From Amoebophrya sp. A120 (Eukaryota; Protista; Dinoflagellata), in the NCBI GenBank assembly GCA_905178155.1, contig CAJINV010000004.1, forward strand, positions 4,807,996 through 4,871,995: a stretch of 64,000 nucleotides of DNA. The letters run 5' to 3'. This document shows, one piece after another, positions 3,133 to 64,000 of the stretch; position 1 is the stretch's first letter; each line of letters begins with the position of its first letter. The notes below the pieces were generated by a model, which saw only the letters and a list, made by a program, of their open reading frames with translations, was not told the DNA's origin and ran no database searches. Position numbers and translations under genes: made by a program.

Positions 3133-5669
3133 ATGTCATTGTCACGACCCCATCACGGGCGTCCGAGCGGACGACGGCATGCAGCCTTGGGCAGTGGCGC
3201 GGCCACTGGGCTTCGTAGTTCTTGCTGCGGGACAAAATGTGGTAAAAACTCCCGGGGACCGCGCTTCCCCGTCCTTTTCCAGCTCGTCCGCGCAGTCGTG
3301 GCAAGGATCCATGACGCAGCCAGCAACAACCCAGGCAGCGTCGACGTGCTGAGATCCAGTTCATCAACTGCCAGCAGTGCCAGTGTCGAGTTTGAATTGG
3401 ACCCGGACGCAGACACTTCCGAATTTTTTCCCCATGTCGACGTTTTTTCGCCGGGGGCCGCGACAGCGCCACTAGAAGAAGCTACTTCAAGGAGCACAAG
3501 ACGTCGTGGCACTACTGCTCCCCCGGAGGTGGACCTAGACCACCCTGTCTTCCTTGACGATCAGCCTACCACGAGCAGCGCCACGTCGAGAGCTGCGCAA
3601 CCACAGCAGTTGAGATCGGAGCAACGAGGCGGGAGCAGCAGCAGCTCGTCTTCAAGGAAGACAGGACAGGGCACCGAGACGTCGGCCGACCTGCGAGACG
3701 AAAAAAGGGCTGGAAGCCGCCCGGTGCACCGTTCTGCACGTAGCCGGGAGACTAGTAGAAGAAGTTCCATGACGGGGTCAAGCGAAAATGAAGCTGGGTC
3801 TTCGTCGTCCTCTTCTTCGTCCCTCATAGAGCTGAACATTACCGGTCGAGAACACGACCATCCCAATCATCTTGTCCAACAAAGCAGACACCAGCAGCAA
3901 CATCCCGGTTTTTACCACCACGAGGACCTGTCTACCACTTCTGACGAAGTAGCCCGAGTCGCGAACAAGCTCGTGCGGAAAGAGCACGGGGGCGGCAGCA
4001 TGCTGGAGATTGATGGTCGTGCAACTTCTACTCTCGCAGCGATGAAATCCAAATCGTCATGGCAGTCCGGGAGTGCAGCTGCCGGCACCACGCCGAGCAG
4101 CAGCAGCAGCTCATCCTCTGCCCTTGGTGGAGGTACAGGTGGTCCCAGTCCCACCCAGCAGGCGTCTTTCTCGCAGGCGCAAGCCGAGTCTCAATCTTCA
4201 ACGACCACGAAGACGGGAAACACAACGGTCGAGGCCCCAGACATGATTCTCGCTGGAATGTCCTTTGTGGGGGTCGGCCTGGTCGCCGCGGTGTCCTACC
4301 AATTGGGATTTTCTAAAGGAAAACTTGCGGTAAACTTTCTTCACTTGTTGTTCAACTATTACTTTAGATTAAGATTTGCTGATCATGGATTGTACCTCTA
4401 CCTTTATTTCGTAGTCCCGCATCATGATACGCATCATGTTTTTCATCGTGTGAACAATTTTTTTTTTAATGACAGAGTGGCGGCGGCGAGAAGGGTGCTG
4501 CCGACCTTCTCGCCCTTCTTCAAGCCGGCGGCGTCGGAAATCTTGCCAGTATGAGCACCAGCTCCTTCCAAGCGGAGGCGCCAGCTGTTATGCATACTAC
4601 AAAAGTATGATCGTAGTGGTAGAAGTCGACGTACAACGAAAAACAACTCATTGCAGTGAAGCATTACAGATTTGGATTTGCATTTTTGCTAGATCAGCAT
4701 GTTGACAAAACCCTGCACTCTCGTACAAGCATACTTTTCCAAGGCATAGCTCCACCGTCGCCCCCGAGACCACCGAAAGCGAAGGCCCCCGCCGCGAAAG
4801 CGAAGTCCGGCAGCGGCGGGTCGCTCACGATCGCCACTGGGAGCACGGCCTTTGGGAAGTCTTCCACAGACGTGGCTTCCGTCGCGAAAGCTGCCCCGAA
4901 GGCCAAAGCCACTGCAAGTTCGCCGTCTCCCCGTGGTTCTTCCGGAGGTTCACCCAAGAAAGGTGGCCCCGACCGGTCCTCTGGGCAGACGCTGGTTATC
5001 GACGGTCTCGGGGTGAAGAACATCAACTTAAAGGCCAAGGCGGGCAAGCGGATCATCAAAAAAGACGGGGATCCGCCCAGCCCGAAGAAGCATCTGACGT
5101 GGCGAGACGAAACGAGTCCGAAAAACCGGGAGTCGGTGATATGAACTGCAAAAGCATCGTACTCGTATAAATGCATTACAAATTTTCTCAGCATGAAAAA
5201 TAAAATTTGTAATGCGGATTTACCTTAAGACAAAGATTTGTAATGCTAGACTTGCATTTATACGAGTACGATACTTTTGCACGGGATAGGTGAACTTTAT
5301 CAGCGACCGAGGGGAGGACCAGGTATCATCTGTAAAAGTGTCTGGGTCTGGAAGAATGCATGTTTGTCATGCTTGTTTGGCATAACTCTGAAATCTGTCA
5401 TGCACGTTACCCAAGAGCTCCACTTTTCTGTGATGCAGAAACGCAGTTTGTCATGCAGAATAGGCAACACCTAGAAGCTCAGAAACTTGTCATGCTGAGC
5501 CAGCATTTGTGGCTTCATCATGAGACGCCACCCAGCATCACAAGTTTCCAGACCCAGACATTTTTACAATCCATACCAGGCGGCGTTGATGCAGTTTGCA
5601 GCCCAGATGGCGGCCGTGGAAGCAGCGAAGGAAGATCGGGGGGTCGACGACGACGACGGGGAGTACTAG
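3133..5669 (+). CDS. Low-complexity Ser/Ala-rich single-pass membrane protein (hypothetical)
   Basis: ORF 3133 contains the hydrophobic segment MILAGMSFVGVGLVAAVSYQLG. A GT-AG intron 4330-4475 plus three TAT...ATA elements (4589, 5140, 5324) give one frame ending …DRGVDDDDGEY* at 5669. The start codon is uncertain. Confidence 0.65.
4589..4748. mobile_element. Introner-like element, degenerate family A (160 bp)
   Basis: TATG...CATA ends, a decayed AAAAGTATG/CATACTTTT TIR and an imperfect duplication GCTGT/GCTCC. Removal restores the frame (…APAVPSPPRPPK). Confidence 0.65.
5140..5288. mobile_element. Introner-like element, family A (149 bp), TSD GGTGA
   Basis: TAT-gaac-TGCAAAAGCATCGTACTCGTATAAATGCA … TGCATTTATACGAGTACGATACTTTTGCA-cggg-ATA, with GGTGA at 5135-5139 and 5289-5293. 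Confidence 0.92.
5324..5575. mobile_element. Introner-like element, family B1 (252 bp), TSD CCAGG
   Basis: TAT-catc-TGTAAAAGTGTCTGGGTCTGGAA … TTCCAGACCCAGACATTTTTACA-atcc-ATA, with CCAGG at 5319-5323 and 5576-5580. Nearly identical over its whole length to 29814-30066. Confidence 0.95.
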
Positions 5670-15961: not shown

Positions 15962-16814
15962 AGTACTAGTACTAGAAGGTCGATATTGTAATTGCCCTTA
16001 CAACTAGTACGCAGGCGACAACTGCAGGCGCCAAAGAAAGATGTTCTGGCAGATTCGTTCTTCATTCTTCGTCGTGCGGAAAATAAGTCCTCAAGAAAAA
16101 GATCTAGCCATCATCATCGAGGTCTAGCAGACGGAAGCAGCGCCGCGGCTCCCTGTCCCTCCATGTCGTGTCAAATCATGACTATCAAGGAAAGAAAGGT
16201 GTGTCGTATGCGGTTTTGCACCTTTCTGGGCTCACGTCTTGAGCAAAACCAAAAGCGACACAATCAAAGAACGACGAGCGTGCTTAATATCTTGATCTAC
16301 AGAACGCGCTCTCTCCTATACCTTGATCATGCTCCTTAGTGAGGAACTGGCTGCGCGCTTATCTTGCAATCGCGAGAAAAATATACGGGAGTGCTAATCA
16401 ACAAGATCAAAACTCTACTACACCGTAGAAAAACCGCTCCCTTCATGATCATCGATGCACCAGTAGATCGTCCTGGGAGTGGGATCTAACTCTTTCTCAG
16501 AGTCAACCGATTGTGATCCCAGCTGATATCTTTTGATTTGGATCTCCGAGCTGTTCTGTTGGTTTGACGTTATATATTTTTTGTCACAGGAGCGTATATA
16601 TGTTGATAGGCGGCACCATTATATGATTATCGATTTCGCTCGTACAAAATGAAAATATGAGCTTTCGCTTTTATTCTGATACCGATACCCACAAAACCTA
16701 GTTATAGTTTTCGTTCCCACCTCGATCTCAGCCGTAGCAGCCATCAAAAATTTTGCGCACGACCTTTCTATCTTTTGAAGATTTGTTTCATCCAGACTCA
16801 CTATATTTTTCAGC

Positions 16815-19800: not shown

Positions 19801-21455
19801 ATAATTCCTGTACGGCCAGTACTACTCCCGGTCTGTTCACGTTCACCATCGCAGAAGAAACTACGAAAAGCCTCCACTTGCGCTATTGTGCACAATGTCC
19901 GCAGGTCTTTCGCGAGGCCCTTGTCGTAAAAGTAGCAGCACTAAGTTCTACTCGGCTTCAAGTGAAGGTGCGCATTCATCCCACGATGAATGGGGCTGCA
20001 GGTGAAACAGTAGAAGCAGCCGAGATCAACCACGATGTGCAGTTTGCCTGCCCCGTGTCCGCGGACGGTTGGTGGTCGGCCAAGGACGGCACATTTATTG
20101 TGAAGAAGGTTCCGCATTCGTTCTTTTCGTCCGCGCGACGGATCTTTACGGCGAACATGTTTGTCCCCGAAGACGGTAGAGTTTTTTGTGCCTCCATGTT
20201 GCGATGCGTGGGCGGTATGCTGTTCTCGACGACGGAAAGGGCGCAGCGGGAGGACTTCGAACAGCAGCGTACTAGAAGTGCGATAACGAGTCCGCGCAAG
20301 AAAAAGCCGGTTCTGCTGCGCATGAAAGACGTCTGCATGACTTTGCTACAGTTCTCGGACGAAAAGGTCCACGCGATCTTCGACCACGCGGGTTGCGTTT
20401 GCATCGTCTTCCACCACGGCCTCGTGATGAATCGGCAGTCGGGACTGCCCTTTGTCGATGTTTCTGTCTGCATGCTCCGCCAATCCTGGGCTACTGTAGC
20501 AGTTACCGCTGTCCGTCCGGAACTGATGCACGGTTGCCCTCAGCACACACTGTCCGAAGAGGAGTATGCCTTCTTCTGTAACTGGTGTCGGTATTCCATC
20601 GCGTCTTGCACACCTTCCATGGCCGCCGAGCACCCGGAGCTGCGCAGCCTCGTCAGCTGTGGCAAAAAGGCCGCCTGGGTCCGCCAGCGTTGCGTGCGCG
20701 TCCTTCTCGGTCCCCTGTTTCCCTCCATGAACTCAATCGACTCGTCGCGCGACCACCTCGACATGGATGCTCCTCACCGCGAACTTCCACAGGAACAAGA
20801 CGACAGCTTTGCAAAATTCGCGAGCAAGCTGATAGGCAACAGCAAAAAGAAGCCGGCGGACATCAAGGCTGCAGCACCAAGCGGATCCTCTGTGGCCGAT
20901 TTCAAAGCGAAGGGCAACCACTTTTACCAGAAGTCGTACTTCACCGACGCGGCGGACCAGTTTCACGCGGGGGAGGAGTGCTTCTCCAAAATTGCCAATC
21001 CTACCTTTGCGGAGGTCTTCGATGGAGTTGCGTGCTCTGCGAACGCCGCCAGCGCTTACCTCCGGGGCAACGCTTACATCGGGAAGAGCGAAGTGAAGCC
21101 GAGCACCACGACACTGGGAACTACAACCGGATCGGGAACTAAGCCGCCCCCGAGAATGAATATTACGATGTTCGACATGAAGGCCCACACAGCGGCAACC
21201 ACGGCAATCGACACCGCCGACAAGTACTTGAAACTCTGGGCCGCGAACTCGCCAGCGACTTCGCCGGCGCAAAAGGATGTTCTCCGGCTCGAAGCTCTCA
21301 AAATCAAAGCACTGTTCCGCCGAGGGCAGGCGACGCTCGGAATGAAAGAAGCCGTGACCGATTTAACGCTGGCCAATGAGCTTGGGCACGGGGAGGACGC
21401 GAAGGTCCGGGACATGCTCCGGCTCGCCGAAGAAATGCTGGAGGTCAAGAAGTAA
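16815..21455 (+). CDS. DUF4470-like + SH3-like + C-terminal TPR protein, interrupted at ~17650-17820
   Basis: YAIGNT…LCLGCGDLRNVL…INDFDPHVLARNILIL is DUF4470-like, FDVITSSNLADHIGLL follows, and KAKGNHFY…KALFRRGQA is TPR-like. ORFs 16815-17699 and 17823-21455 are in the same frame, separated by a palindrome and a duplication. Confidence 0.75.
17656..17732. repeat. Perfect 38-bp-arm palindrome (fold-back of exon sequence)
   Basis: TTGTCGAAATCTGGAAGAAATGGTTGCGCTTTTTCAAC, a single T, then the exact reverse complement. Confidence 0.95.
17735..17796 (+). repeat. Tandem duplication of ~30-32 bp
   Basis: ACGAAAAATAACTCAAAACACCAAGGGCGTAC followed by ACGAAAATAACTCAAACACCAAGGGCGTAC. Confidence 0.9.
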
Positions 21456-25346: not shown

Positions 25347-26655
25347 GGCCGCAAGACATTTTGGCAAAGAAAAATTACAACGCCATCGTGCGGAAAATAT
25401 GGAATGAATATGAAAAAGATGAACTGACATACATTTACTTACATTGGTCTCAATCCAACAAGCGAACAATGGACCTTGGCACTCGTCGCATCAGAAATTC
25501 CAACGCAGTTGTAGATGTCCAAAGGTAGAAAAAGAAATTCAAATTTGCTGCCGCAGGAACTTTCCTTGTGCGTGCAGAGAACATGAAAAACTACTCCGGC
25601 GAGTTCCTCGATGTATTATTGTATCGCCAGTTGCTGTTCATCTTCTGGTCGTCTTATATGAACTTAGGACGCAAGAACGGTCGGCGTGGTGCAGGAGCAG
25701 GGATATATAATTACCAGGCAGAAAGATAGCCCGAGCCCGGCGCCTCATTCCTATGCCAGTCGTGGCAAGAAAAAATCTGTTGTGGTAGGTACAGCGAATG
25801 ATTCATTAGCATAGTGTCGCGGATGAAATAGGATGTAAAGGTAAACCGTGAAAGTGTTTCTTTTCTCGTATTGTGAGGGCCCGAGGCAGCCTCGGTTTTC
25901 GTGGAGTACATGTCTGCGCCTGCGGGAAACAAATTCGCTGCAGACCATAAATGATCGTGCTTGTACTCATCTGCGGGCGGAAACAAATGAATTGCTTTCG
26001 TGCCCGTGATCTCTTGATCGTTTATGGTAGTGCACGCTTTTTCCTTCGTCGCAATGGTCTTAATACCTCAAGCACAGCTTGTTATTGCCGCGTTCGCTAC
26101 AACTCTTTTGCCTCCACCTTCATCGTTGATCTAACTATTACCGACAAGACTGTAGTACTTAGCTGCACGACTAGAGCTGCCAGGGAAACTCGTGGGTTCG
26201 TGAGGAAACAGCAACACCTCGCTTCAATAACAGGATGGGAGTAGTCGACAACTTTCAGTTCTTCTGTGATCGTCGCTCGTCGCTCCATTTCGCGAAACAA
26301 AGATGAATCTATCGCACTAGAAGGCTCCACACCCCCGCTCGTGCAACAGATAAGTCAAACTCAAAGGCTATTCAACTAAAGTATATTAAACTCGGAATTT
26401 TTCACGACCCTATTTCTAGTCTGGCACTACGATTATGACAGTCATCTACATCTTCAGGATCAAAATGTTGGACGAGGGAGTACTTTTTTTTTTCTATTCT
26501 TTCGGGTGACGCAACCAGTGATGTTGATGTGAAAAGATAGAAAATGGCATGGTCGTACTCGTTTCACTCTAGCCGAGACTAGCTTTGTCCGGTTTTCCGG
26601 AACAACGGGCGTAAAGGTTCCTGGAGCGACGCGGTTGTGAATGTGATTGAACAAG

Positions 26656-28039
26656 ATGCCGAAGAACGTTACCAGATCCAGACTTTCGGTGTCGGCGAAG
26701 CTGCTGGCGTTTACGTTTGGAAACGGTAATTGTATTATTGACTTGATTTCATCGGAAGTTCAAGTTCATATTCATTCACATGACATGTATTGGCTTCTTG
26801 GCTTCCATCGTCTTTGTGTATTTTTGGTGATTTTCATGCATATCAACCGCCCGCACCCGCAGCCGCAGCCGCACGCAAGAACATGCAGGGACATCGTGTG
26901 ATGCGCTACGTGACGCACATGCTGCGCATGCGCTGGTGCAGAAGTAATGTTGTAAATCAATACAACCTAAGATGTCGCGTTCGCGAAGATAAAGATTAAG
27001 ATTAAAAATAACTCTGCACTAAACTTCTACAACGAACAGGCCTAGCTATCGTGGTGGACCGGGACACGAGGAAGCAACTGGAAGAGGTCGAGTCGTTCCA
27101 TGGTTCCGTTGCTGGTGTCGGACCCGATGGAAACGTCGACCAGAAGCAGGAAGGCAACGAGTTGTACTACAGCGACGAGACGGAAGACGCTCCGGCTAGC
27201 GAGAATGATGTTGAACAAGGTGGAGAACCGTCGGTGGGGATGTTGGACAAGGTGGCAGCTGCGTCGGAGATGTACGACAAGCTCATGGCCTGCAGAACAA
27301 CGCGTTGCTGTCGGGCGTTGAACGCGGCCGCAATGAACGGAATGCGGACTTTGTGAAGGGCGCCCGCAAACTCATGCGAGACGGCGAAGGACTCACGAAC
27401 GGGTCTATAAATCCAGGAAAGACAGCGTTCGACAACGTGCATGACGCCACTATGGGCCACTTCCGCGGCAGACTCTACCCCTACAGCTGCTGGTGGAAGG
27501 ACGCATCCAGCTTCCCAGTGCGCATATCGACAGGAAAAACAGCACTGACGCTGTCAATATATTTGATAAGTAGATATATCATAAACATTAAAATGTGGTT
27601 TTGCATGATCTACAGCCGGATGGTGCTGGTGCATGGATGGGTCATGAGCCAGCGACTTTTTTGTCACTTTTCTGTCTGAGTTGGAATAAACAAACATTAA
27701 GAACATGACCTTTCAATTCCATAGAGACCTCCACGGCAAGCGGAGATTGTTCCAGTGCCACAGCCACAAGTCATAAATTTATTGATGCAAATGATCAAGA
27801 ACAAGAATAGTATTCTGTGCAGCGTTTTTCTTTTTCGATTCCGCATCCAGGAGGGTTGCTACTACGCCTTCACTGCGGCTCTGACAGGAGCCTGGCAAAA
27901 TCCGAGGAGAGCGGATCGGGATTGCTGCGAAGAAGTGCCGGGCGAGAAGAAGTGCCGGCGGGTAGAGAACGCGCCTCTGTCCTGCCCGAAGTACGAAGCG
28001 ACACCGGGCCACCCCCTACAGACGGCATGGTTCAGATGA
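26656..28039 (+). pseudogene. Cys-rich small protein family, copy 1 (probable pseudogene)
   Basis: Same exon structure as copies 2 and 3, but lacks 13 nt relative to copy 3 near 27280 (GACAA[cactttcaacagc]GCTCA), which shifts the frame. Confidence 0.55.
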
Positions 28040-29390
28040 GATTCTTCAAGAAACAAGCTAGCTCTAGCTAGTACATGCGTGCGTCGAAGCAGTCACAAAT
28101 AACAGAAGTTGTAAGTGCTCAAGTTCAAAAGCAATAAATACACGGGTCCGATTAACATCAATCATGACCACACCCACACGATGACGATGAGATGTTTAAG
28201 TACTTGCAGCGTCTGATCTATCAATTTCGTCGTGACAGTAAAAAGTTACCGTGTGACACTTGAAGAGAAAAGTCTCCTTAATATCGCGGCCACGTTGTAC
28301 TCACACAATTTGTCGAACACGATGCCTTTTGGATTTGAAATTGCTTCAACACATCGCATATGAATTGAAATCTACGTAACTGTACTTACGAAATTGTGCT
28401 TGTTGAAATTTTGTTTTATTTATATGCATCTTATCAGGCTTGAAAACTAACAGTGGCACAAGAAGCGTATTTTTGTTTGCGTTCTAGGTTGCAGCGATAC
28501 TCGGCTCGACAGACGAGGTGAAGAACACGAAGAGATAGGATTGCGTGTCGCCTTAGGTCTGCCCGGACCCGGCGTCCGAAGCCCTCCATCCAGCAGCTGT
28601 TGCTTCTGCAACTCTACGTCGGCTGCTGTGGTGGAAAAAAGAATTGTCACGAGGTGTTCCAATACCACACACAGCAAAGGCAGAATATCGGAACTTTTTA
28701 ATTTTTGTAAGTAGGTAGTAAGTACTCAAACTTACATATGTACCGGGGTTGTTTGCTTTTCTTTGTAATAAACATCGTATCGTGGTGCTTCCTGTTCTAT
28801 CTTCATCTTCTCGTTTAGTTGACCTCGTCTACCACTTGACTTCGAGCAATGACTATCGTAACTCGCTAGATCAGAAAGACTTCATCGTTGCTTTCTTACC
28901 GACAAGACTGTAGTACAGCTGCACTAGAGCTGCCAGGGAAAATCGTGGGTTCGTGAGGAAACAGCAACACCTTGCTCTGTAGTCGACAACTTTCAGTTCT
29001 TCTGTGAGCATCGGTCGTCGCTCCATTTCGAGAAACAATCTATCGTAGACGTCTCCACTACGCCCCCGCTCGTGCAACAGCGTCAAAGTGAGCTATGCAC
29101 CCAGCAGAGTATTTTTTGCGGATCTAGCTTTAGTCTTGCACGGTGCAGCTGCGTCAATTTCAATGTACGATTACGACAGTCATCAGAAAAATAATAATAA
29201 ACATGGTCGAGGGAGTGATCTACTTGTTTTTTTCTGATTCTTTCGGGTGACCGACGCAACCAGTGATGTTGACGTGAAAAGAACATGGCGTGGTCGTACT
29301 CGTTTCACTCTACTAGCCGAGACTAGCTTAGTCCGGTTTTCCAGAACAAGAGGCGTAACGGTTCCGAAAGCGACGCGGTTGTGATTGAAG

Positions 29391-30850
29391 ATGCCGAAGA
29401 ACGTTACCAGATCCAGACTGTCGGTCTCGGCGAAGCTGCTGGCGTTTACGTTTGGAAACGGTAATATTCATTCGATTTCATCGGAAGAAATTCATATTCA
29501 TTCACATGACATCTATTGGCTTGGCTTCCATCGTCTTTGTGTATTGGTGATTTTCATGCATTATATCAGCCGCCCGCACCCGAATGCAAGAACATGCAGT
29601 GACATCGTGTGATGCGCTACATGAGGCACATGCTGCGCATGCGGTGGTGGAGAATTAACTTGAATGTTGTAAATCAATACAAAGTAAGATTTAGCGATCG
29701 AAGTAGATAGCCAAAGATTAACAAGATTTAATAATTCTTCAGGCCTAGCCGTCGTGGTGGACCGGGACACGAGGAAGCAACTGGAAGAGGTCGAGTCGTT
29801 CCATGGTTCCGTTTATCAAATGCAACAATGTCTGGGTCTGGAAGAGTGGATGTTTGTCATGCTTGTCTGGCATGATGACTCTTAAATCTGTCGTGCACGT
29901 TACCCAAGAGCTCCACTTTTCTGTCATGCAGAAACGCAGTTTGTCATGCAGAATAGGCAAGAACACCTAGAAGCTCACAAACTTGTCATGCTGAGCCAGC
30001 ATTTGTGCTCATGAGACGCCACCCAGCATCACAAGTTTCCAGACCCAGACACTTTTGCATTTGATACCGTTGCTGGTGTCGGACCCGATGGAAACGACCA
30101 GAAGCAGGAGAACAACAACGAGTTGTACTACGGCGACGAGGCAGAGGAGGACGCTCCGGCCAGCGAGATGAATGATGGACAAATTGGAGAACCTTCCGTG
30201 GTGATGTTCAACATCTCGCCCGAGGCCGCGCAGGCGCAAGCAATGGCTGAACACGTGGACGGTGGACAGTCGATCGGGAACGTAATCCCCGGCACTGCCA
30301 CCAGACTGCACTCCTACACCTGCTGGTGGCGGGCAGAAGAAAGGACACTATTCACGAATCAGGTGTGGGTTATATCGATGGGAAAAACAAAAGCAGCAGC
30401 ACCATTGCCGCTGTCCATATGAATAAGAATGATTTGGCTTTGCATCTTTCAGCTTAATGCATTTTTCTAGACTTGCACTTGCATGATCTTTTGGTGCATG
30501 CATGGGTCATGAGCCAACTTTTTCTTTATTGTCCTGCCTGACCAACCGAACTTTATTTTCCTGCCTGAACAACATTAAGGATAAGGACAGGAACAGATGA
30601 TGAGCATTGTCATTCATCAAGAACAGTGGTGCTGCGCGCCGCGTTTTCTTTGTTGATATCGCGAAGCGGGTTGCTACTACGGTTTCACCTATTTTTCGGG
30701 GCGAGCAAAGAGGGGGAAGAGAGCGCATTCGGATTGCTGCGTGGAAGTGGATGACGGGGCGGGAAGGAAAAAATGCCGGCGACAGAACTTGCGCAGATTG
30801 CCTGTGACCTGCCCGGTGTACGAGTCTGGCGAGTTGGCCTCCTGGACAAG
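29391..30850 (+). CDS. Cys-rich small protein family, copy 2 (divergent 3' half; 3' end uncertain)
   Basis: MPKNVTRSRLSVSAKLLAFTFGN|GLAVVVDRDTRKQLEE…SYTCWW…GCYYGF…DCCVE…KCRR…CPVYE. Carries element 29814-30066. Confidence 0.55.
29814..30066. mobile_element. Introner-like element, family B1 (253 bp), TSD CCGTT; empty site in paralogues
   Basis: TAT-caaa-TGCAACAATGTCTGGGTCTGGAAG … TTCCAGACCCAGACACTTTTGCA-tttg-ATA, with CCGTT at 29809-29813 and 30067-30071. The paralogues (~27106, ~32717) have a single CCGTT. Confidence 0.97.
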
Positions 30851-32360
30851 GTAAGCTTCGGGAAGCAGCAGGAGTGCGCCTTCGCTATCACTTCAAAAAA
30901 AATCAAAAACAAATACTAACTTACAAACAAAAGTGTAAACTACTAGAGCAACAGCAAGACTATACGGATATTATGACGCTGCTTACGACCAGAAGTGCCA
31001 CTACTAGTAGACAAAGGAATAGAAGTGAAAAATAGAATGAAGAGAGGAAAAGCATGCACAGCTGTGCGCTGTGCTTGAAGAGTAAAAACGATCGCCACGT
31101 ACTGGAACTCGTAGCGCACGACACTTTTTGGATTTGAAATACAAATAGGCTCTACGAGATCGCCTATTATGAATTCAAAAAGCAAGACGTCCATGTCGAG
31201 GACCAGGCAGCAATTTACTCCAGACGGCCGCAAAGTCGAATATTGTATATTACATACGCAATTTTTGTGCTTGTATAATGTATATTCAATTGCTATTGTA
31301 TAAATGTTGTCAGAGATTTTTGTTTGCACTCTTTTATAGCAATACTCGGCTCGACCACAGACGTCGAAATCACGGAGAACACGAGATACGATTTCGTGTC
31401 GTGTCCGGTTCGTTCTCTCCGGTTCGTTCTCTAAGCGGCGTCCGGAGCTTTCCAAGCTGTTGCTCGTGCAGCTGCACGTCGTGTTCGAACAAGACCACAC
31501 GCGGTGGCAAGGGCGGAATATCGGAACTCCTGGATCATGTCGTGTAGTGTATGTACGTACTCACTCTTCGTCTTCGGTATGGCTATGGTTGGCTGCATTG
31601 CGGAAAATAAGTCTTCGGGTTGGTTGCGGAAAATAAGTCCTCAAGATCTAGTCATCATCTTGGTCGTGATCTCTTGATCTCTTGATCTTTTAATTTTATG
31701 GTGGTGCACGCTTTTTCCTTCGTCGCGATGGTCCACTTAATACCTCAAGTACAACTTGTTATCCCTTCGCTACAACTCTTTTGCCTCCACCTTCTTCGTT
31801 TTCGTTACCTTACCGACAAGACTGTAGTACTTAGCTGCACTAGAGCTGCCAGGGAAAATCGTGGGTTCGTGAGGAAATAACAGCAACAGCTAGCTACACT
31901 AACATGATGGGGGTAGTCGACAACTTTCAGTTCTTCCGTGAGCGTCGCTCGTCGTCGTCGCTCCATGTCGCGCTTCAAAGATGAATCTATCGTAGTAGAA
32001 GGCTCCACGCCCCGGCCCCCGCTCGTGCAACAGATAAGGGAAAGGCTATTCACCTAGAGTATGAAATTGAACAAGCTCAGAATTTTTCACGAGCCTATTT
32101 CTAGTCTGGAACAGTGCATCAATTATTTACGATTACGACAGTCATCTTCAGAATCAAAATGTTGGACGAGGGAGTCTTGTTTTTTTCCTATTCTTTGGGG
32201 TGACGTAACCCGTGATGTTGACGTGAAAAGAACATGGCGTGGTCGTACTCGTTTCCCTCTTCTAGCGGCCGAGACTAGCTTCGTCCGGTTTTCCGGAACA
32301 AGAGGCGTACAGGATAAGGTTCCTGGAGCGACGCTGTTGTGAATGTGATTGAACAACAAG

Positions 32361-33917
32361 ATGCCGAAGAACGTTACCAGATCCAGACTTTCGGTCTCGG
32401 CGAAGCTGCTGGCGTTTACGTTTGGAAACGGTAATAATTGGCTGGGCTTTAATCGTCTTTGTGTATTGGTGATTTTCATGCATGTCAGCCGGCCAAACCC
32501 GCACGCAAGAACATGCAGTGACAACATGTGATGCGCTACATGACGCACATAAAAATGCGCATGCGCTGGTGGAGGAATAACGTTCGTAAATCAATACAAA
32601 CTAAGATGTCGGTGTCTCGAAGATAAGGATCAAGATTAATAATTCTACAGGCCTAGCTGTCGTCCTGGACCGGGACACGAGGAAGCAACTGGAAGAGGGC
32701 GAATCGTTCCATGGTTCCGTTGTTAGTGTCGGACCCGATGAAAACGTCGGCCAGAAGCAGGAGCGCAACGAGTTGTACTACAGCGACGAGGCGGAAGACG
32801 CTCCGGCTAGCGATAATGATGTTGAACAAGGTGGAGAAGAACCTTCCGTGGTGATGTTGGACAAGGTCAAGGTGGCAGCGTCGGAGATCTACGACAACAC
32901 TTTCAACAGCGCTCAGCGCCTGCAGGACAACTCCGTGCTGTCCGACGCGCAACGCAGCCAGATTGAACATGATGAGGAGTTGGTGCAGACCGCCCGCAGC
33001 CTCATGCGCGACAGCGAAGGACTTACGAACGGGTGTCTGCATCCGCCAACGACAGCGTTTGGCAAGTTGCGTGACGCCACGGGCTATCAAATGTAAAAGT
33101 GTCTGGGTCTGGAAGAATTGGAACTTGTGATGCTAGCTTTGGTCTCTAAAAAAATCTGTATTGCATGACCAGCAAGAGGAGTCTAGTTTGTGCTATGCAG
33201 GGAGGGCGTTTGTCATGCGGAGTAGCCATCAGGAAGCCCTCTAAAAATCTGTGATGCTAGGTCGTGCATTACAGACATCCTGGGTCATGCAAAACATGCA
33301 TGACAAGTCTCAGAATCTTCCAGACCCAGACATTTTTACATTTGATACGGGCCACCTTTCCTACAGCTGCTGGTGGAAGGATGCATCCGTCTTCCCCTGG
33401 CGCATATGGACAGGAAAAACAGCACTAGTGACGCATTTTTTTGGTTTTGCATGATCTAGACCAGGATGGTCCTGGTCCATGGAGATGGAGATGGATCGGT
33501 CAGGAGCCAGCGAGTTCTTTGTCATTTTTCTCTCTGAGTAGGAGTAAAAAATAAGAACATGTTGACCTTCCAATTCCATAGAGACCTCCGAGGCAGGCGG
33601 AGATTGTGCCAGTCGTGCCACAGCCACAGCCACAAATTAAAATTATAAACTTGTTGATGCAAATAATCAAGAATAAAGAGAGTATTCTGTGCAGTGTTTT
33701 TCTTTTTTGATTCCGCCGTCAGGGTTGCTACTACGGTATCACCGCGGCTCTGGCAGGAGTCTGTCAGAATCCGAAGAGAGCACATGGGGATTGCTGCGAA
33801 GAAGTGCGAGTGCCGGGACAGAACAACAAGTGCCGGCGGGTAAAAAACGCGCTTTTTTCGTGCCCGAAGTACGAAGCGATACCTGGCTTCTCGTCACAAA
33901 CGGCATGGTTCAGATGA
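32361..33917 (+). CDS. Cys-rich small protein family, copy 3
   Basis: GT-AG intron 32431-32650 and element 33085-33347. The C-terminal exon reads GCYYGITAALAGVCQNPKRAHGDCCEE…KCRRV…CPKYE…WFR*. The last intron's boundaries are unresolved. Confidence 0.6.
33085..33347. mobile_element. Introner-like element, family B2 (263 bp), TSD CGGGC; absent from paralogues
   Basis: TAT-caaa-TGTAAAAGTGTCTGGGTCTGGAAG … CTTCCAGACCCAGACATTTTTACA-tttg-ATA, with CGGGC at 33080-33084 and 33348-33352. The interior is similar to 54489-54760. Confidence 0.96.
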
Positions 33918-34842
33918 AATTCTTTGTAGGAAGCTGGCTGTAGCTACTACCACGTGTGCGTCGGCAGCGGCACAGTCACAAACAGAAGTTGTAAGTGCTC
34001 AAACTCAAAAGCAGATACACGAGTCCGATTAACATCAATCATGACCACATGTTGTTGATGAGATGTTTAGGTTTACGTGCGTCTGATGAATCTCGTCGTG
34101 ACAGTAAAAACTTACCGTGTGACACTTGAAGAGAAAAGTCTCCCTATCGCGGCCACATTGTACTCAAACAATTTGTCGAACGCGATGCCCATGCCTTTTG
34201 GATTTGATTGGCATTGGTTCAACAGATCGCATATGAATTAAAATTTACGTAACTGTACTTACGCAATTGTGCTTGAATTTTTGTTTACTGTATTTATGCA
34301 TCTTATCCGACTTGAAAACTATCAGTGGCACAAACGTATTTTTGTTTGCGTTCTAGGTCGCAGCGATGCTCGGCTCGACAGACGAGATGAGGAACACGAG
34401 ATAAAATTGCGTGTCGCGTCACCAGTTCTGGTGTCCGGCGTCCGGAGCCCTCCATCAAGCAGCTGTTGCTTCTGCAACTCTACGTCCCCCGCTGTGGTGG
34501 AAAAAGAATTATCAGGAGGTGTTCCAAGACATGAGACCACACACAGCAAAGGTAAAATATCGGAACTCCTGGATTTTTGTGAGTAGGCACTGACTCAAAC
34601 TTACGTATGTACCGAGGTTGTTTGGGTTTGCCTTTGTATACTTTCTAGTCTTCCTGTTCTATCTTCATCTAGATCTTCTTGTTCATCTTCTCGTTTATTT
34701 GACCACCCGACGCCGAGCAATGACTATCGTAACTGGCTCGACCTAGATCAGAAAGATCCCCTGAAGATGTATGCTCTTCGCCCCTCTAGTCTTTTCTCTC
34801 GGGTACCCGACTTGCAGCTGCTGCAAGAGTTTTAAATCAAAC

Positions 34843-37465
34843 ATGCCGCGCTCCTCGTTGCCGTTCATTATATTGTGTCCGGCGCTGTTTTCGTCCCTCC
34901 TGCGTGTCGTTTTATGGTGGGGAATCTTTTCTGACGTCTATTTCGTTTCGGTTTCCGCACGACGCCGCGCTGATTCCACCCGCCCATTTGGTTTCTTTCT
35001 CCCATCTCCCCAGCACCAGCGCAGTCCCCGATCTCCGAGTTGTCACTCTGATTCCAGTAGAACAACCACGCCTCGAACAAGCCCTCGACACCCCGCAATC
35101 AGCAGTTCGGCCGACGCACTGCTTTCCCCCCGCACAACCTCCACCAATGACAATCCCCACAAACGCGTGCAGCTGAAGGTGACCACCTACATCCCGCGCG
35201 TGAATTGGCTGGAGGTCCCGGGCGTCGCAACCCCGACCAAGGACCAGGGCTTGGCCAGTGGCTGCGCGGCCTTCGCGCTGGCCGCCGTGCTGGAGAGTCG
35301 GTATGCGATTCACCGGAGAAAAAACGCGGTGCCCGTGTCGACCGCGCAGTTGCTGGAATGCGGGTCCGAATACCTCGGGTGGGACCTCTGTACGGACGGC
35401 GGCCACGATAGTCACCTGCTGCAGTATTTACATTTCGCTAAGGGGGTTGTGTCGGAAGAAGAGTACCCGACAAAAATGTTCGCCACTTTTCTCGGCGGAA
35501 TGCTGCCCGCGGACCACGTCGGACGGAGGTGCAAGTACTCGAAAGAACGACCATCGAAGTCCGGTTTTGATATGGGAACAATTGGCTACTTGAACCTGAC
35601 GGCCTCCTGGACGTTGATGTCGTCTCTGTTTTCCAACACGGCTTCGCGGTCTGCTGAAGTAGACAGTCGGGATTTTCTGGTCGAACAAGATGAAATTGAA
35701 ACGGAGAACGCGAGACGAAATAGTAATATTGTCCCGACATCATCTTCTAGCACTAGCAGAACAAGTAAAAGTAGAACTCTTACACCCGCCAGCATTCAAG
35801 GCAAAACAGCACCAACATCAAAGCGATACATCGACGGTGCTCCGGACCGGGACAAAATCATTCTCCCAACTGACGCCAGCTTCCTGCGCATTTTCCCGCT
35901 GCCCCGCCACGCCTCGAGTCAGTGGACGATGATCCGGGACTATCACGAGAAAAAAGTGTTCGTGTTGCAGTTACTGCATCACAAATTTTCTCTGTGTGGC
36001 AGGGAAAACTTGTAATGCGAAGATCATAAGGGAAAACAGGAAGGAAACGAGGCTCCCAAGCATTTCCTGCATGAGAAAGGGCATCTGTGTTGCCGGTCTT
36101 GCAACACAATGTGTAAATGTAACACTTTTTTCTTGCGATAGGGACCAGGTGTATCTGCTCGGCCCTGTGTTGTCCAGCATCCGGGTACCCAATTCCCTGC
36201 TCGAGTACGGCGGGGCGGGCGCTTTTTGGGTGGACCGAATCCTCCCCTCCGACTGCCCCTGGTCAACAAATAACCACGACGCAATCTCCGAGGCGCAGCG
36301 GGGCCTCTTCACGCAGTCGTCCTACTCGAACCAGCCGAAGGAGTGGCACAGTGTCGCGATTTTCGGCTTCGAGAGCTCCGCGTCGGCAAAGCATCAGCGG
36401 ATGCAAACGGGTGGTTTTGGAGGCGGGGGAAGTAGTACTAGTAGAGCTGGTGCAACTTCATCACATGTTGCAAGTAGTCGGAACAATGACCCTCATCGGA
36501 ATCCTCGTTCAACAGCTCCGAACTACAGCACCTCCTCCCCGCGCGGTTCTGCAGGCAAGAGTAACGATCCACCTGCAGTCGACGACAACAACGGTCCGTT
36601 CTGGATCGTGCGCAATTCCTGGGGACCAATTGCCCACCGCGGCCGGGGTTACTTTCTGGTCCAGGCGGGAAGCAACGTATGCCACATCGAGGCGATGGCG
36701 AAGATCGTGGATTTTGGCGGCTTCGACTGCGAACGGGATTGCATCCCGATTTTGGCGCGAAGAGAGGTGATGAGATCATCCACAGCACCCTCAAGGCCAT
36801 CCTTGCGGCAGTTTGTCAGCGGTGCGACTTCAAGTATGATATCATCGAATCATAATCACACAGCACCAAACACCATCAGAAATCCAAATTCTTCTACGCA
36901 GAGAGGGACGACAAAAAACCGGGTTGTAGCGTTCGCTCTGGGGGGAGATGACGCCGACGACGAGGCGCAACAGACCAAAACCTTCGTACGCCTGTACCAG
37001 CAGCGAGACATCCCTTTGCAGGAATTAGCAATGCGGCAAAACGTCCTCGCGGGGTCTTGGGCAGGGGCGGGCACGAGGAACCCGATAACCGCTTTCCCGG
37101 AGTCCACGGGGGAACCAACAATGAGCTACAGCGAGCGGTGCGGGAGTCGCGGTAGTACAAGGCCAGGAGGTCATGAAGCAGCTGTTGATACAAGAAGGAC
37201 AAGGAGCACCATTGCACCGCAAAACGGGGAACATAGAAAAGAAGAGCCAAGTGCAACTTCCCCACCGGGTCAGGAGGATTGGTGTCGCTTCTACTGCCGC
37301 ATGCACAGCACCGTCGTGAACACCAGCGGCTGGCCGTGGGGCGGGCAGCCGGAAACAAAGCGGACCTGCAAGATGCGCAAAGACTACCGATCGGCGTTTT
37401 TCACAGCTGAGTGGGAAAGTCGAAGACAACAATCGCGGACTCAAAGACCAATTATCAGTCTTTGA
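34843..37465 (+). CDS. Papain-family (C1A) cysteine protease with low-complexity insertions
   Basis: VNW…TPTKDQGLASGCAAF (catalytic Gln/Cys), VSTAQLLEC, WHSVAIFGF (His) and FWIVRNSWG (Asn), with a hydrophobic N-terminus. The ORFs are joined by removing element 35941-36140 (IRD|QVYLLGPV). The start could be 34771. Confidence 0.88.
35941..36140. mobile_element. Introner-like element, family F (200 bp), TSD GGGAC
   Basis: TATCACGAGAAAAAAGTGTT … AACACTTTTTTCTTGCGATA, with GGGAC at 35936-35940 and 36141-36145. Confidence 0.93.
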
Positions 37466-53082: not shown

Positions 53083-56000
53083 ATGCCGGGCCAACATCAG
53101 CAGCCCCCCTCACAAAATAACCCGCCCAGCACGACCAAGATGAAGCTTGATAACAAGCACCATTCGTCGAACAGCGGTTTGATCCGCGATATGCAGCGTA
53201 TTCTGGTGGAAACAAAACGAAAATACGACGAAGTGCTGGTAGACGGCGAACGGAAGGAACAGGAGCTGACCCGGATCCGCGACTCGATTCGCCTGTGGGA
53301 AGCCGCAAAAGAGGAAGAGGAGCGCACCCAACGGTCACTGGGGCTACTACAACCGACTTCTTCGAGCGGGGGTGGAAATAATGCTCCCGCGGCCGGACCC
53401 GGAGCAGGGTCAATTGCAGGAACTACGGGTGGACTAAACAAAGCTTCGTCTGCGTCTTCGAGCTCATACGCAGGTGGTTTTAACAGAAACGGCACCACCG
53501 GAGCTGCAGCGGGAACGAGCGGGGCGGGAGGGAGCAGCTCATCCGACCAGATTCATTCCTCCACTGGCACTTCTGGTGGAGACCAGCAGATCATGCCTCA
53601 TGATCCGAATTATGCCACGAATGCTGCAAATGCGGCAGGAGGTAGTGCAACTATGAGTAGCTCATCCGACCAAGATCTCCTAAGCCAAGACCCGAACGCG
53701 CTACAGATTGAGGACCTCGAGGTGAGCAGGAAAGTCTACAAACACATCCTCGAGCGGTCACGCACCGAACTCGGCGTGCTGCGCCAGCGGCTGTTGAAGT
53801 TAGAAGGATTGTTGGACAAGCGCACCCTGGAAGAGGAGGGCAAGCTCGCACTGTCCCGGAAACTGACGCAGGCGAAACAGCACAAGCAGCACGAGCTGGA
53901 TAAGCTTGAGGTGAGTATATCTGAGCACAACACCTGAAAAAATGTTATCATATATCATTCGTATATTGCAATTGTTGAACTTGATTTGCCTTCCCATGTT
54001 GATCTATCAGGCCGACATCCGTAACGCATCGGAGCGGGAGCAGGAGACGCTCCTGGAATACGAAGGCAAGCTGGAAAGCAAGCGCGAGGCGGTGAAGCGA
54101 CGGACGGATTTTGAGAAGTGGCGGCAGGAGATCGCGGTAGAAGCCGCAACGGAGGCGTTGTTTGCGAGTGCGAGCAGACTGAGGAAAATGTGGGCCATGG
54201 AAAAGTTGACAGGTAGTCCTTTCTTTTGTGCTGCGCGGTATTCTAAGATCCTCATGCTGCAGACGTATTCAAGAACACAGAAGTTGAAGTTGAAGCTGAA
54301 GCTCCTTGTTTTCACGCCAGCATTCGACTTTTGGCTCTTTTATAGTAGGATTTGGATTTCTGTATGACCATCGATATTCACCTCAGTAAAAGGCGTCTCC
54401 GTAACCTCCACAACAAATTGCAGGTAACTGTCTCCAGCGCATTATGTACGAGCAGGTGGAACGCAGTCAAGTGACCGAGGACGGGTTCTACCAAGTGCAA
54501 AAATGTCTGGGTCTGGAAGAATGCAACTTGTGATGCTGCATTTGGATTCCAAAAAAAATCTGTATTGCATGAGTGCCAAGGGGAATGCAATTTTTGCTAC
54601 GCTGAGAACAAGGCATTTGTCATGCGGAAATGGATTATGCATCAAGAAGCCCTCAAAAAATCTGTATTGCTAGGGTATGCATCACAGACATCATGGCTCA
54701 TGCAAAACGTGCATGACAAGTGTCAGAATCTTCCAGACCCAAACACTTTTGCATTTGATAGGTTCCAGCGCATCCGGGAGGTCACCGGCTTAACCGAGGT
54801 TTCCGAAATCGTGCAGAAATTTCTCAATCGCGATGTGGAGCACGAAAGATTGGAAAAGAACGTCGTGGAAAACGAGAAACGGAAGAAGGACTTGGAGCAG
54901 GAAATCACCAATTCAGCCAATTTGCCGACGGCTGGAGCAGGAGGAGGTGCAGCAGTAGCTTCATCATCTATTGGAGAGCATGAACAAGCAGAAGCTCCCT
55001 CGGGCGTGCGCGAAGATCCTGCCGCTGGTGTCATTGCCGGTGTTGAGGACGCATCTTCTTCCACCGCGCCACGAATGTTAACTGACGGCGGGGCTTCCTC
55101 CTCTACCGACGCAGAAGGAGACGGTGCAAATACGGACCTCCTGCGGGAGGACGCGGCTGGAGCAATATTAAAACAAGACCTCGTGACATCAAGTCCTCAG
55201 CAGCAGCAAATAACCACTCTGTCCTCGACCTACCAGCAGGTGGATAAGCTCGAGAACGAGCTGACCAGGGTCAAGCGCGAGTTTTCGGAGTCTCGGGAGC
55301 TGTCGGAGGCGAAAATCATCGAAATGGACAAGTTACGGAAGTGGATGGTGCGTCTGGGAAAAAGTTTATCCTTTTTCGACCAGTACTACACCGAGTTTCT
55401 CAGCTCCACCAGCGATTTGCAAATGCAGCAACAGGGCGGGGGTGGGGATGGAGGGGGGAATAAGCCTGGGGCTGGCGGGGTCTCCTCACCGAATCTGATC
55501 GTGCAACAGGTAAATGTTGATGGGTTTTTGCTCATCATTTTTCGGAAAAAAAAATTCTGGAGATGATGAGATGATGCGCAAGTACAGTTTTTTGGGTTTT
55601 GAATAAAAAGCAAACGCATTCACATTCCCTTGTAGCCAATAGACCAAAGAGAAAGATGCAAAGATCACACTTCTCGTTTTACTGCACAGGAAACCATGCA
55701 GAGCTTTTTTCGCCGGTTACACACCCAGACCGTGCCCCAGTTGATTCAGGAAGTGCGGAACCAGCTTGGAACCGGGCGCCGCGGAGTTTTCTCCAAAGAA
55801 TACCACGAGCAAGCCAGACTGCTCAACGACAAGGAATTCCTGCGGAACAACTGTACTTCAAGAACGTATGGCAATGGCTGTTTCTCAAAAGCAACTGCAT
55901 GATGTCATACGATGATAAAAATTGAAAAAACTGATACTTGCACGACCCTCGCAGCTGTTCCTCACTACAGCAGAAATACAGAATTGACACAAAAAACTAT

Positions 56001-63814: not shown

Positions 63815-64000
63815 TTGCCCCAGGGCAGGTTTTTTCGCCCCTCTAACTTGGGCGCGATAAAAGCTGCCCCAGGGCAGGTTTTTTCGCCCCTCTAACTTGG
63901 GCACGATAAAAGCTGCCCCAGGGCAGGTTTTTTCGCCCCTCTAACTTGGGCACGATAAAAGCTGCCCCAGGGCAGGTTTTTTCGCCCCTCTAACTTGGGC
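63815..64000. repeat. 49-bp tandem satellite (runs off the window end)
   Basis: CTCTAACTTGGGC recurs at 63841, 63890, 63939 and 63988. The unit contains AAAAGCTGCCCCAGGGCAGGTTTTTTCGCCCC, and a degenerate unit lies upstream at ~63780-63815. Confidence 0.93.

What the first reader, a model, noticed from the sequence alone, without database searches (positions are those of the whole stretch)
27095..33352. Empty versus filled sites among tandem paralogues show independent, recent insertions with 5-bp TSD
Seen: copies 1 and 3 read GGTTCCGTTG once (~27102, ~32713), whereas copy 2 has CCGTT-[B1 element 29814-30066]-CCGTT. Copy 3 alone has CGGGC-[B2 element 33085-33347]-CGGGC. The B1 copy is nearly identical to 5324-5575, ~24 kb away in an unrelated gene. 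This directly supports mobility, the element boundaries and the duplication length. Precise loss from the other copies is less parsimonious but not excluded.
Basis: seen in the sequence. Interest (0 to 1): 0.85.

Follow-up and report, generated by a model that had tools for sequence, protein, structure and literature searches.

The report
Jumping elements that became clean introns
In the marine parasite Amoebophrya, two short transposon-like elements each sit in only one of three side-by-side gene copies, and sequence data that behave like RNA lack each element plus one 5-base repeat, so they likely jumped in and became harmless introns, a behaviour already described for this organism.

Summary
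The B1 observation holds exactly: CCGTT-[29814-30066]-CCGTT in copy 2, and a single CCGTT in copies 1 and 3. B2 (33085-33347) has its CGGGC repeats, but copy 1 is not a clean empty site. B1 is 88% identical to 5324-5575 with gaps (92% without), not near-identical.

The window is Amoebophrya sp. A120, since two NCBI proteins equal my spliced models of copies 1 and 3. RNA-like contigs skip 258 and 268 bases, each the element plus one 5-bp repeat, which restores the reading frame. In 152 outside loci, 130 of 154 family copies carry an exact 5-bp repeat (123 different sequences). They lie in either orientation and show no GT/AG bias. These are the published A120 introner elements; the TAT ends and 5-bp repeats are already in print.

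What this locus adds is paralogous filled and empty sites, plus an older decayed element shared by all three copies. In copy 2 its splice sites are unambiguous: 1 base before the 5' repeat and 4 bases after the 3' repeat. If general, that fixed register would bear on how these non-canonical introns are spliced, but it rests on one intron.

The parts
29814..30066 (+). B1: 253-bp non-autonomous TAT..ATA TIR element in exon 2 of copy 2, spliced out with one repeat
   Evidence: joint 29808>30067, skips 258
29809..29813 (+). B1 left 5-bp repeat CCGTT (right copy 30067-30071)
33085..33347 (+). B2: 263-bp TAT..ATA TIR element in exon 2 of copy 3, spliced out with one repeat
   Evidence: (joint 33078>33347, skips 268)
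33080..33084 (+). B2 left 5-bp repeat CGGGC (right copy 33348-33352)
27106..27110 (+). Empty B1 site in copy 1 (single CCGTT)
32717..32721 (+). Empty B1 site in copy 3 (single CCGTT)
27450..27480 (+). Region of copy 1 matching the B2 site: no element, but indels on both sides
26656..27356 (+). Copy 1 coding sequence (128 aa, cut short by a 13-nt deletion relative to copy 3); GT-AG intron 26726-27039
   Evidence: P0069 identical to the model
29391..30854 (+). Copy 2 coding sequence (210 aa predicted after removing intron 29461-29742, B1 and the old element)
32361..33917 (+). Copy 3 coding sequence (251 aa after removing intron 32431-32650, B2 and the old element)
   Evidence: P0068 identical to the model
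27525..27840 (+). Old decayed TAT..AT(A/T) element, now an intron shared by all three copies (copy 1)
   Evidence: (joint 27520>27842)
30373..30658 (+). Old shared element in copy 2; the RNA joint is unambiguous, intron 30372-30662 (1 base before the 5' TIR, 4 after the 3' TIR)
33405..33712 (+). Old shared element in copy 3
   Evidence: (joint 33400>33714)
5324..5575 (+). E1: B1-subfamily copy with CCAGG repeats, inside another coding frame
54489..54760 (+). E4: B2-like copy with GGTTC repeats, inside another coding frame

Best explanation
B1 and B2 are short elements with terminal inverted repeats and 5-bp flanking repeats, absent from the sister gene copies and skipped with one repeat in RNA-like contigs, and they likely arose by separate DNA-transposon insertions after the gene was duplicated, surviving because splicing restores the original message. 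Shown: structure, exact 5-bp repeats, filled and empty paralogous sites (clean for B1), removal of the element plus 5 bases from RNA-like contigs, and frame restoration. Inferred: (1) a DDE transposase supplied from elsewhere, not found here, cuts the target with a 5-base stagger at almost any sequence; (2) the inverted repeats pair in the pre-mRNA and bring the ends together; (3) the cut sites are likely set by position relative to that stem (1 base before, 4 after) rather than by GT/AG, so exactly one repeat copy is removed in either orientation. Step 3 is the weakest, about 0.4 on its own.
For: RNA-guess runs X3 and X5 skip 268 bases at B2 (depth 198.8 and 129.2); DNA run X1 shows no such joint. 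They skip 258 bases at B1 (depth 488.7 and 241.3). That is more than copy 1 alone supplies (255.6 and 167.2) and close to copy 1 plus copy 2 (542 and 321). Copy-2-specific RNA contigs start at 30067, whereas the DNA contig starts inside the TIR at 30041. B1's own base at 29978 has no RNA depth. Retention would stop the proteins at 70 and 171 aa; removal gives 210 and 251 aa. The 251-aa model equals NCBI protein P0068. Two more elements are skipped the same way: 205 = 200+5 and 157 = 152+5. In the FTHFS gene, removing element+5 gives gap-free alignments to homologues at 5 of 5 elements, while +2 or +8 almost never does. In outside loci 130 of 154 copies have an exact 5-bp repeat, and 81 of 108 scored sites read best as coding after removing element+5 (1/3 expected). 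No GT/AG bias: G at repeat position 5 in 24 of 77, AG at positions 3-4 in 8 of 77; orientation 38 same, 29 opposite, 10 unclear. B1 and B2 fold into long terminal stems, z = -4.96 and -9.09.
Against: X3 and X5 are only guessed to be RNA, are one sample, and are assembled contigs. They do behave as spliced RNA: GT-AG joints and zero depth in the GT-AG intron. The contig across the B1 joint lies in a stretch shared with copy 1, so assigning it to copy 2 rests on depth and contig starts, not on one phased read. No transposase was found. B1 and B2 lie 4.0-4.9% and 6.1-8.7% from the majority of their nearest sampled relatives, comparable to half the divergence between paralogous introns (10-15% for intron 1; 12% for the old intron of copies 1 and 3), so their ages do not by themselves prove gain. 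The old shared intron is spliced although its fold as a whole is no better than shuffles (z = -0.06); only a short terminal stem remains.
Confidence: 0.85

Rival explanations
1. B1 or B2 was present before the duplication or gene conversion and was lost precisely from the other copies, for example by conversion with a spliced cDNA; the empty sites would then be secondary.
For: Over most of the unit copies 1 and 3 are sisters (88-91% ungapped identity in non-coding parts, against 69-86% to copy 2), so one B1 loss on their stem is as parsimonious as one gain. Copy 1 and spliced copy 2 share an unbroken identical stretch across the B1 site (62 + 30 bases), which looks like conversion. Element ages are not clearly younger than the paralogue splits. 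Copy 1 carries an extra TAT, the element's first three bases, inside the would-be B2 repeat.
Against: In the tract holding B1, copy 1 is closest to copy 2 (intron 1: 90% against 85-86%; exon start 69 of 71 against 66 of 71). That tract includes the GT-AG intron, so the conversion was at DNA level, and both the sister and the outgroup are empty there. B2 is absent from both other copies, so loss needs two events. The old shared element was kept in all three copies, so cDNA-driven loss did not sweep this gene. B1 and B2 have perfect repeats and 28-29 of 30 TIR matches, against 12-17 of 30 for the shared element.
Confidence: 0.1
2. The elements spread through an RNA intermediate (reverse splicing of the excised intron) or through a Copia-type integrase, not by cut-and-paste DNA transposition.
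For: PMC7789003 (section 16) reports no transposase in A120 and argues for copy-paste gain. PMC12130899 (passages; supplement file 8) finds an A120 TIR family with Copia/Gypsy-like ORFs, noted as '5-bp TSD, TA/TA termini'. The high share of coding sites fits a link to transcription.
Against: Insertions occur in both orientations (38 against 29), which reverse splicing into mRNA would not give. Reverse splicing does not create a 5-bp duplication by itself (general knowledge). The genome is gene-dense, so coding sites are expected anyway.
Confidence: 0.12
3. The three units are mis-assembled haplotypes or an assembly artefact.
For: No single contig in the DNA run spans all three units.
Against: Each unit has its own zero-mismatch DNA contigs at single-copy depth (27-31 against 25-28 in the flanks). 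Each has its own spliced RNA joints. Non-coding divergence is 10-31%.
Confidence: 0.02

Closest known systems
Amoebophrya A120 introner elements (Farhat et al. 2021, PMC7789003)
   Same: Same organism; non-canonical introns with inverted repeats and a direct repeat at the exon border; ends read TAT + 7 bases + AAA as described for A120; 5-bp repeats shown in their Fig. S19 (legend seen); about 240 nt average length; no transposase inside.
   Different: The paper gives repeats of 3-5 nt and calls the splice position relative to the hairpin variable or unknown. Here the repeat is 5 bp in 130 of 154 copies of this family, and one decayed copy fixes the register at 1 base before and 4 after. The passages I read show no filled-versus-empty paralogue.
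A120 TIR introner families in Gozashti et al. 2025 (PMC12130899), including family 38
   Same: TIR DNA elements of about 250-260 bp listed for A120; family 38 is noted as '5-bp TSD, TA/TA termini'.
   Different: Their automatic TSD calls range from 2 to 6 bp and they classify splice sites as carried or co-opted. B1 and B2 have no ORF with TE homology that I tested, and I could not assign them to a numbered family.
MITE-derived introners of Aureococcus and Micromonas, and non-canonical introns of Fritillaria (passages of PMC11282704, PMC9860276, PMC7789003)
   Same: A small TIR element plus one target duplication is removed by splicing, leaving the mRNA unchanged.
   Different: Those use GT/AG or other preferred dinucleotides; here no dinucleotide preference is seen in the target repeat.
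Euglenid nonconventional introns (PMC11282704, passages)
   Same: Non-canonical borders, terminal pairing that brings the ends together, TSD-like repeats, unknown splicing machinery.
   Different: Unrelated lineage; different conserved motif (CAG/CTG near the ends); released as circles, which is untested here.
IS3EU/GingerRoot DNA transposons (PMC10045372, passages)
   Same: TA..TA termini; integrase-like DDE enzymes.
   Different: Their duplication is usually 6 bp; here 0 of 154 copies have an exact 6-bp repeat. No transposase is available to test kinship.

Membership tests
Amoebophrya A120 introner element | Host is Amoebophrya A120 | tested here: met
   Proteins named Amoebophrya sp. A120 by NCBI equal the spliced models of copies 1 and 3
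Amoebophrya A120 introner element | Removed from RNA as an intron without GT-AG borders | tested here: met
   Joints skipping 258 and 268 bases; no slide position gives GT..AG. The runs are RNA by guess and by behaviour.
Amoebophrya A120 introner element | Terminal inverted repeats starting TAT + 7 nt + AAA | tested here: met
   Both ends of B2 and the right end of B1 fit; the left end of B1 reads AAC
Amoebophrya A120 introner element | 3-5 nt direct repeat at the exon border | tested here: met
   Exact 5 bp at 4 of 4 window copies and 130 of 154 outside copies
Amoebophrya A120 introner element | Repeated across the genome | tested here: met
   4 copies in the window; 13,163 DNA contig records laid on 17 kb, piled on the elements; 154 copies in 152 outside loci
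MITE (non-autonomous TIR DNA transposon) | Short, TIR-bounded, target duplication, too small to encode a transposase | tested here: met
   240-305 bp for 149 of 154 copies
MITE (non-autonomous TIR DNA transposon) | Autonomous partner with the same TIRs and a transposase | tested here: inconclusive
   The 5 longer TIR pairs (481-1255 bp) and the 1192-bp window element have no open stretch above 118 aa; only about 0.5 Mb was sampled and no whole genome was held
IS3EU/GingerRoot | TA..TA termini | tested here: met
   143 of 154 start TAT and 148 of 154 end ATA
IS3EU/GingerRoot | 6-bp target duplication | tested here: not met
   0 of 154 exact at 6 bp
IS3EU/GingerRoot | Transposase that groups with IS3EU | not testable with these tools
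   No transposase found

The most novel reading that the evidence does not exclude
Amoebophrya A120 splices its TAT..ATA introns by a ruler rather than by sequence. The 5' cut falls 1 base before the terminal stem and the 3' cut 4 bases after it, which equals the transposase's 5-base duplication, so any insertion, in any target and either orientation, is born as a perfect intron. The invariant ends would then supply a 5' site N-UAU(G/C), like GUAUGU without the G, and a fixed adenosine 5 or 7 bases before an AG-independent 3' site, pointing to a U1-less spliceosome that measures from a branch point inside the TIR.
Probability: 0.35. Interest if true: 0.72.

Novelty: already known. Interest (0 to 1): 0.3.

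Why it matters
The elements belong to a published class, and B2 is already treated as an intron in the deposited protein, so the finding is not new in kind. It is still a clean worked example. An empty paralogous site shows that the direct repeat of Amoebophrya introners is a target-site duplication, and three age layers of intron gain sit in one small gene family. The shared decayed element also shows a way to approach the open question of how these non-canonical introns are spliced: elements whose repeats have decayed reveal the true splice positions, which intact repeats hide.

Tried and rejected
No whole genome was held, so there was no genome-wide count and no transposase search. No RNA holder was listed on record. 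Three raw-read RNA runs gave no test: X9 covered only element pieces and X10 and X11 laid 0 reads on copy 2. No relative of the tandem gene was found in metagenome contigs (0 of 142 pattern matches confirmed), so there is no outgroup or strain survey. The TIR pattern had 0 matches in viral contigs. Rfam gave 0 matches in 25500-35000. Function of the tandem gene: 0 Pfam families for 2 of 2 proteins, no usable Atlas hit, and 2 of 37 candidates passed the homologue search, both copies from this locus; the copy-2 protein was not returned. Two other homologue searches did not name the organism. I tested whether the target repeat supplies GT or AG and rejected it. A test of the -1/+4 register from mutation bias in imperfect repeats was inconclusive: 30 cases, no consistent direction. 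A first frame test by open-codon runs did not separate the removal lengths. A first three-way alignment misplaced copy 2 downstream of B1 and was replaced by pairwise and protein alignments. IS3EU membership was rejected on duplication length. Earlier scan findings: none returned.
Full report
Observation. The region 26.0-34.8 kb holds three tandem units of about 2.8 kb. Copy 2 carries a 253-bp element (B1, 29814-30066) between two CCGTT repeats, and copies 1 and 3 have CCGTT once. Copy 3 carries a 263-bp element (B2, 33085-33347) between two CGGGC repeats. Two more family members lie at 5324-5575 (CCAGG repeats) and 54489-54760 (GGTTC repeats). All 4 have an exact repeat of 5 bases and of no other length from 2 to 11. 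B1 and 5324-5575 agree at 228 of 247 ungapped columns, 88% with gaps; B1 and B2 agree at 183 of 238. The B1 empty site is clean: copy 1 is identical to copy 2 for 62 bases left and 30 right of it. The B2 site is not: copy 1 has 3 extra bases inside the would-be repeat and 15 extra just after it, and copy 2 is not alignable there but lacks the element.

Organism and genes. Each unit holds a three-exon gene that starts MPKNVTRSRL. My spliced models give 128, 210 and 251 aa. A homologue search returned 2 of 37 candidates, named by NCBI as Amoebophrya sp. A120, and they equal the models of copies 3 and 1 letter for letter. The deposited model therefore already treats B2 as an intron; it probably rests on transcript data like those below and is not independent support. 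The protein has no Pfam family and no usable Atlas hit. By eye it has a hydrophobic N-terminal stretch and a Cys-rich C-terminus, so it may be secreted (inference). Copy 1 is cut short by a 13-base deletion relative to copy 3. The units are paralogues, not haplotypes: DNA run X1 gives zero-mismatch contigs at depth 27-31 over each, like the flanks at 25-28.

The elements are introns. Runs X3 and X5 (RNA by guess, one sample, contigs) show GT-AG joints and no depth inside the GT-AG intron, so they behave as spliced RNA. They skip 268 bases at B2 (263+5), which DNA run X1 does not, and 258 bases at B1 (253+5). The B1 joint lies in a stretch shared with copy 1, but three things assign part of it to copy 2. 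Its depth (488.7, 241.3) exceeds copy 1 alone (255.6, 167.2) and approaches copies 1 and 2 together (542, 321). The copy-2 RNA contigs start at 30067, whereas the DNA contig starts in the TIR at 30041. B1's own base at 29978 has no RNA depth. Retention would truncate the proteins at 70 and 171 aa. Two further TAT..ATA elements are skipped with +5. In the FTHFS gene, 5 of 5 elements give gap-free alignments to homologues when element+5 is removed (130 of 132 spanning hits at one site), whereas +2 or +8 gives at most 2 gap-free hits at any site.

Family-wide test. A TIR pattern found 153 stretches in the scanned quarter of the metagenome collection; 152 loci (505,685 bases) reached the script box. 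None overlaps the window outside the elements. They hold 154 distinct two-ended copies: 130 have an exact 5-bp repeat, 2 a 4-bp one and 0 a 6-bp one; the control rate is 0.11%, and the 130 repeats have 123 different sequences. Of the 130, 108 had enough flank to score, and 81 of 108 read best as coding sequence when element+5 is removed. In the 77 sites that could be oriented, G at repeat position 5 (24 of 77) and AG at positions 3-4 (8 of 77) are at background, and the element lies in either orientation (38, 29, 10 unclear). Across all TAT..ATA families, 218 of 391 candidates have an exact 5-bp repeat, against 0 in three shuffles. The repeat therefore behaves as a target-site duplication with little sequence preference.

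Gain or loss. The genealogy is mosaic. Copies 1 and 3 are closest upstream, after the B1 site, in the old intron (88% against 69-71%) and downstream. Copies 1 and 2 are closest in intron 1 (90% against 85-86%) and up to the B1 site (69 of 71 against 66 of 71). On the overall tree, B1 gain and loss cost one event each; on the local tree gain wins. B2 needs one gain or two events. B1 and B2 have intact ends (28 and 29 of 30), against 12-17 of 30 for an older element shared by all three copies. Against a very recent date, their nearest sampled relatives differ by 5.7%, and they lie 4.0-4.9% and 6.1-8.7% from the local majority. The sample is small, so these are upper bounds.

Splice register. With intact repeats the joint can slide by 5-7 bases. 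The old shared element has decayed repeats. In copy 2 the joint cannot slide: the intron begins 1 base before TAT and ends 4 bases after ATA (30372-30662). Copies 1 and 3 allow the same register, and the intronic parts of the old repeat (A before, YCGC after) are kept in 3 of 3 copies while the exonic parts changed in copy 2. At the FTHFS element 11990, keeping at least two left-repeat bases gives Ser, seen in 7 of 116 homologues with the motif, whereas the alternative gives Pro, seen in 0 of 116; this is weak but compatible. A mutation-bias test on 30 imperfect repeats was inconclusive. B1 and B2 fold into strong terminal stems; the old intron folds no better than shuffles overall and keeps only a short terminal stem. 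The ruler reading thus rests on one independent intron. The likeness of N-UAU(G/C) to the GUAUGU donor, and the idea of a branch point at a fixed distance, are from my own knowledge and untested.

Comparison with print. PMC7789003 (passages, sections 11 and 16, supplement legends) describes A120 introner elements with TAT + 7 + AAA ends, 3-5 nt direct repeats, a 5-bp example in Fig. S19, 29,850 copies, no transposase, an undetected U1 snRNA, and an unknown splice position relative to the hairpin. PMC12130899 (passages; 40 of 58 A120 rows of supplement file 8; files 13 and 14 not searched) lists A120 TIR families and notes '5-bp TSD, TA/TA termini' for family 38. PMC11282704, PMC9860276, PMC12005148, PMC10045372 and PMC12730594 were read as passages. 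I found no statement of a fixed register or of a filled-versus-empty paralogue for Amoebophrya in searches. However, Figs. S19-S23 are pictures I could not see and may show the register, and subscription papers are not covered.

Verdict. A real and well-supported example of a known kind: two introner insertions in a tandem gene family of Amoebophrya A120. Interest 0.3. The lead worth following is the fixed splice register.

Noticed in passing
window 27525-27840, 30373-30658, 33405-33712: An old decayed TAT..ATA element shared by all three copies is still spliced; copy 2 fixes the splice sites at 1 base before and 4 bases after the TIRs.
   Followed up: partly
window 27280-27356: Copy 1 has a 13-nt deletion relative to copy 3 that ends its protein at 128 aa, yet it is transcribed and spliced, and the Cys-rich part stays open in another frame.
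   Followed up: partly
window 26726-27135 versus 29461-30096: Likely DNA-level conversion tract: copy 1 is closest to copy 2 here and to copy 3 elsewhere.
   Followed up: partly
window 27450-27457: Copy 1 has an extra TAT, the element's first three bases, inside the would-be B2 target repeat; probably chance, but an odd relic is not excluded.
   Followed up: no
window 9979-12816: The formate-tetrahydrofolate ligase gene is interrupted by at least five TAT..ATA elements of different families; removing each with 5 bases restores the alignment to homologues.
   Followed up: yes
window 47405-48596: A 1192-bp TAT..ATA element with TAATA repeats, internal tandem repeats and no long ORF sits in a coding frame; its TIR matches the 150-bp family at 5140, 7829, 11516 and 41445.
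   Followed up: partly
window 29391-30854: The 210-aa protein predicted for copy 2 was not returned by the homologue search, though the gene is well covered in RNA-like contigs; it may be missing or differently modelled in the annotation.
   Followed up: no
window 33314-33347: Raw-read run X9 has about 96 reads from one other transcript that retains a family TIR, with the same flank as a contig in X3: an element end kept in an abundant RNA.
   Followed up: no
window 17656-17732: A perfect 38-bp inverted repeat (77-bp palindrome) lies at the border of two long open frames, 16779-17699 and 17700-21455.
   Followed up: no
window 63816-64000: A 49-bp tandem repeat array runs off the end of the window.
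   Followed up: no
L042:3862-4492, L069:4792-5763, L041:571-1051, L066:2317-2820: Longer family copies (481-972 bp) with exact 5-bp repeats and no open stretch above 118 aa; possible internal-deletion forms of an autonomous element.
   Followed up: partly
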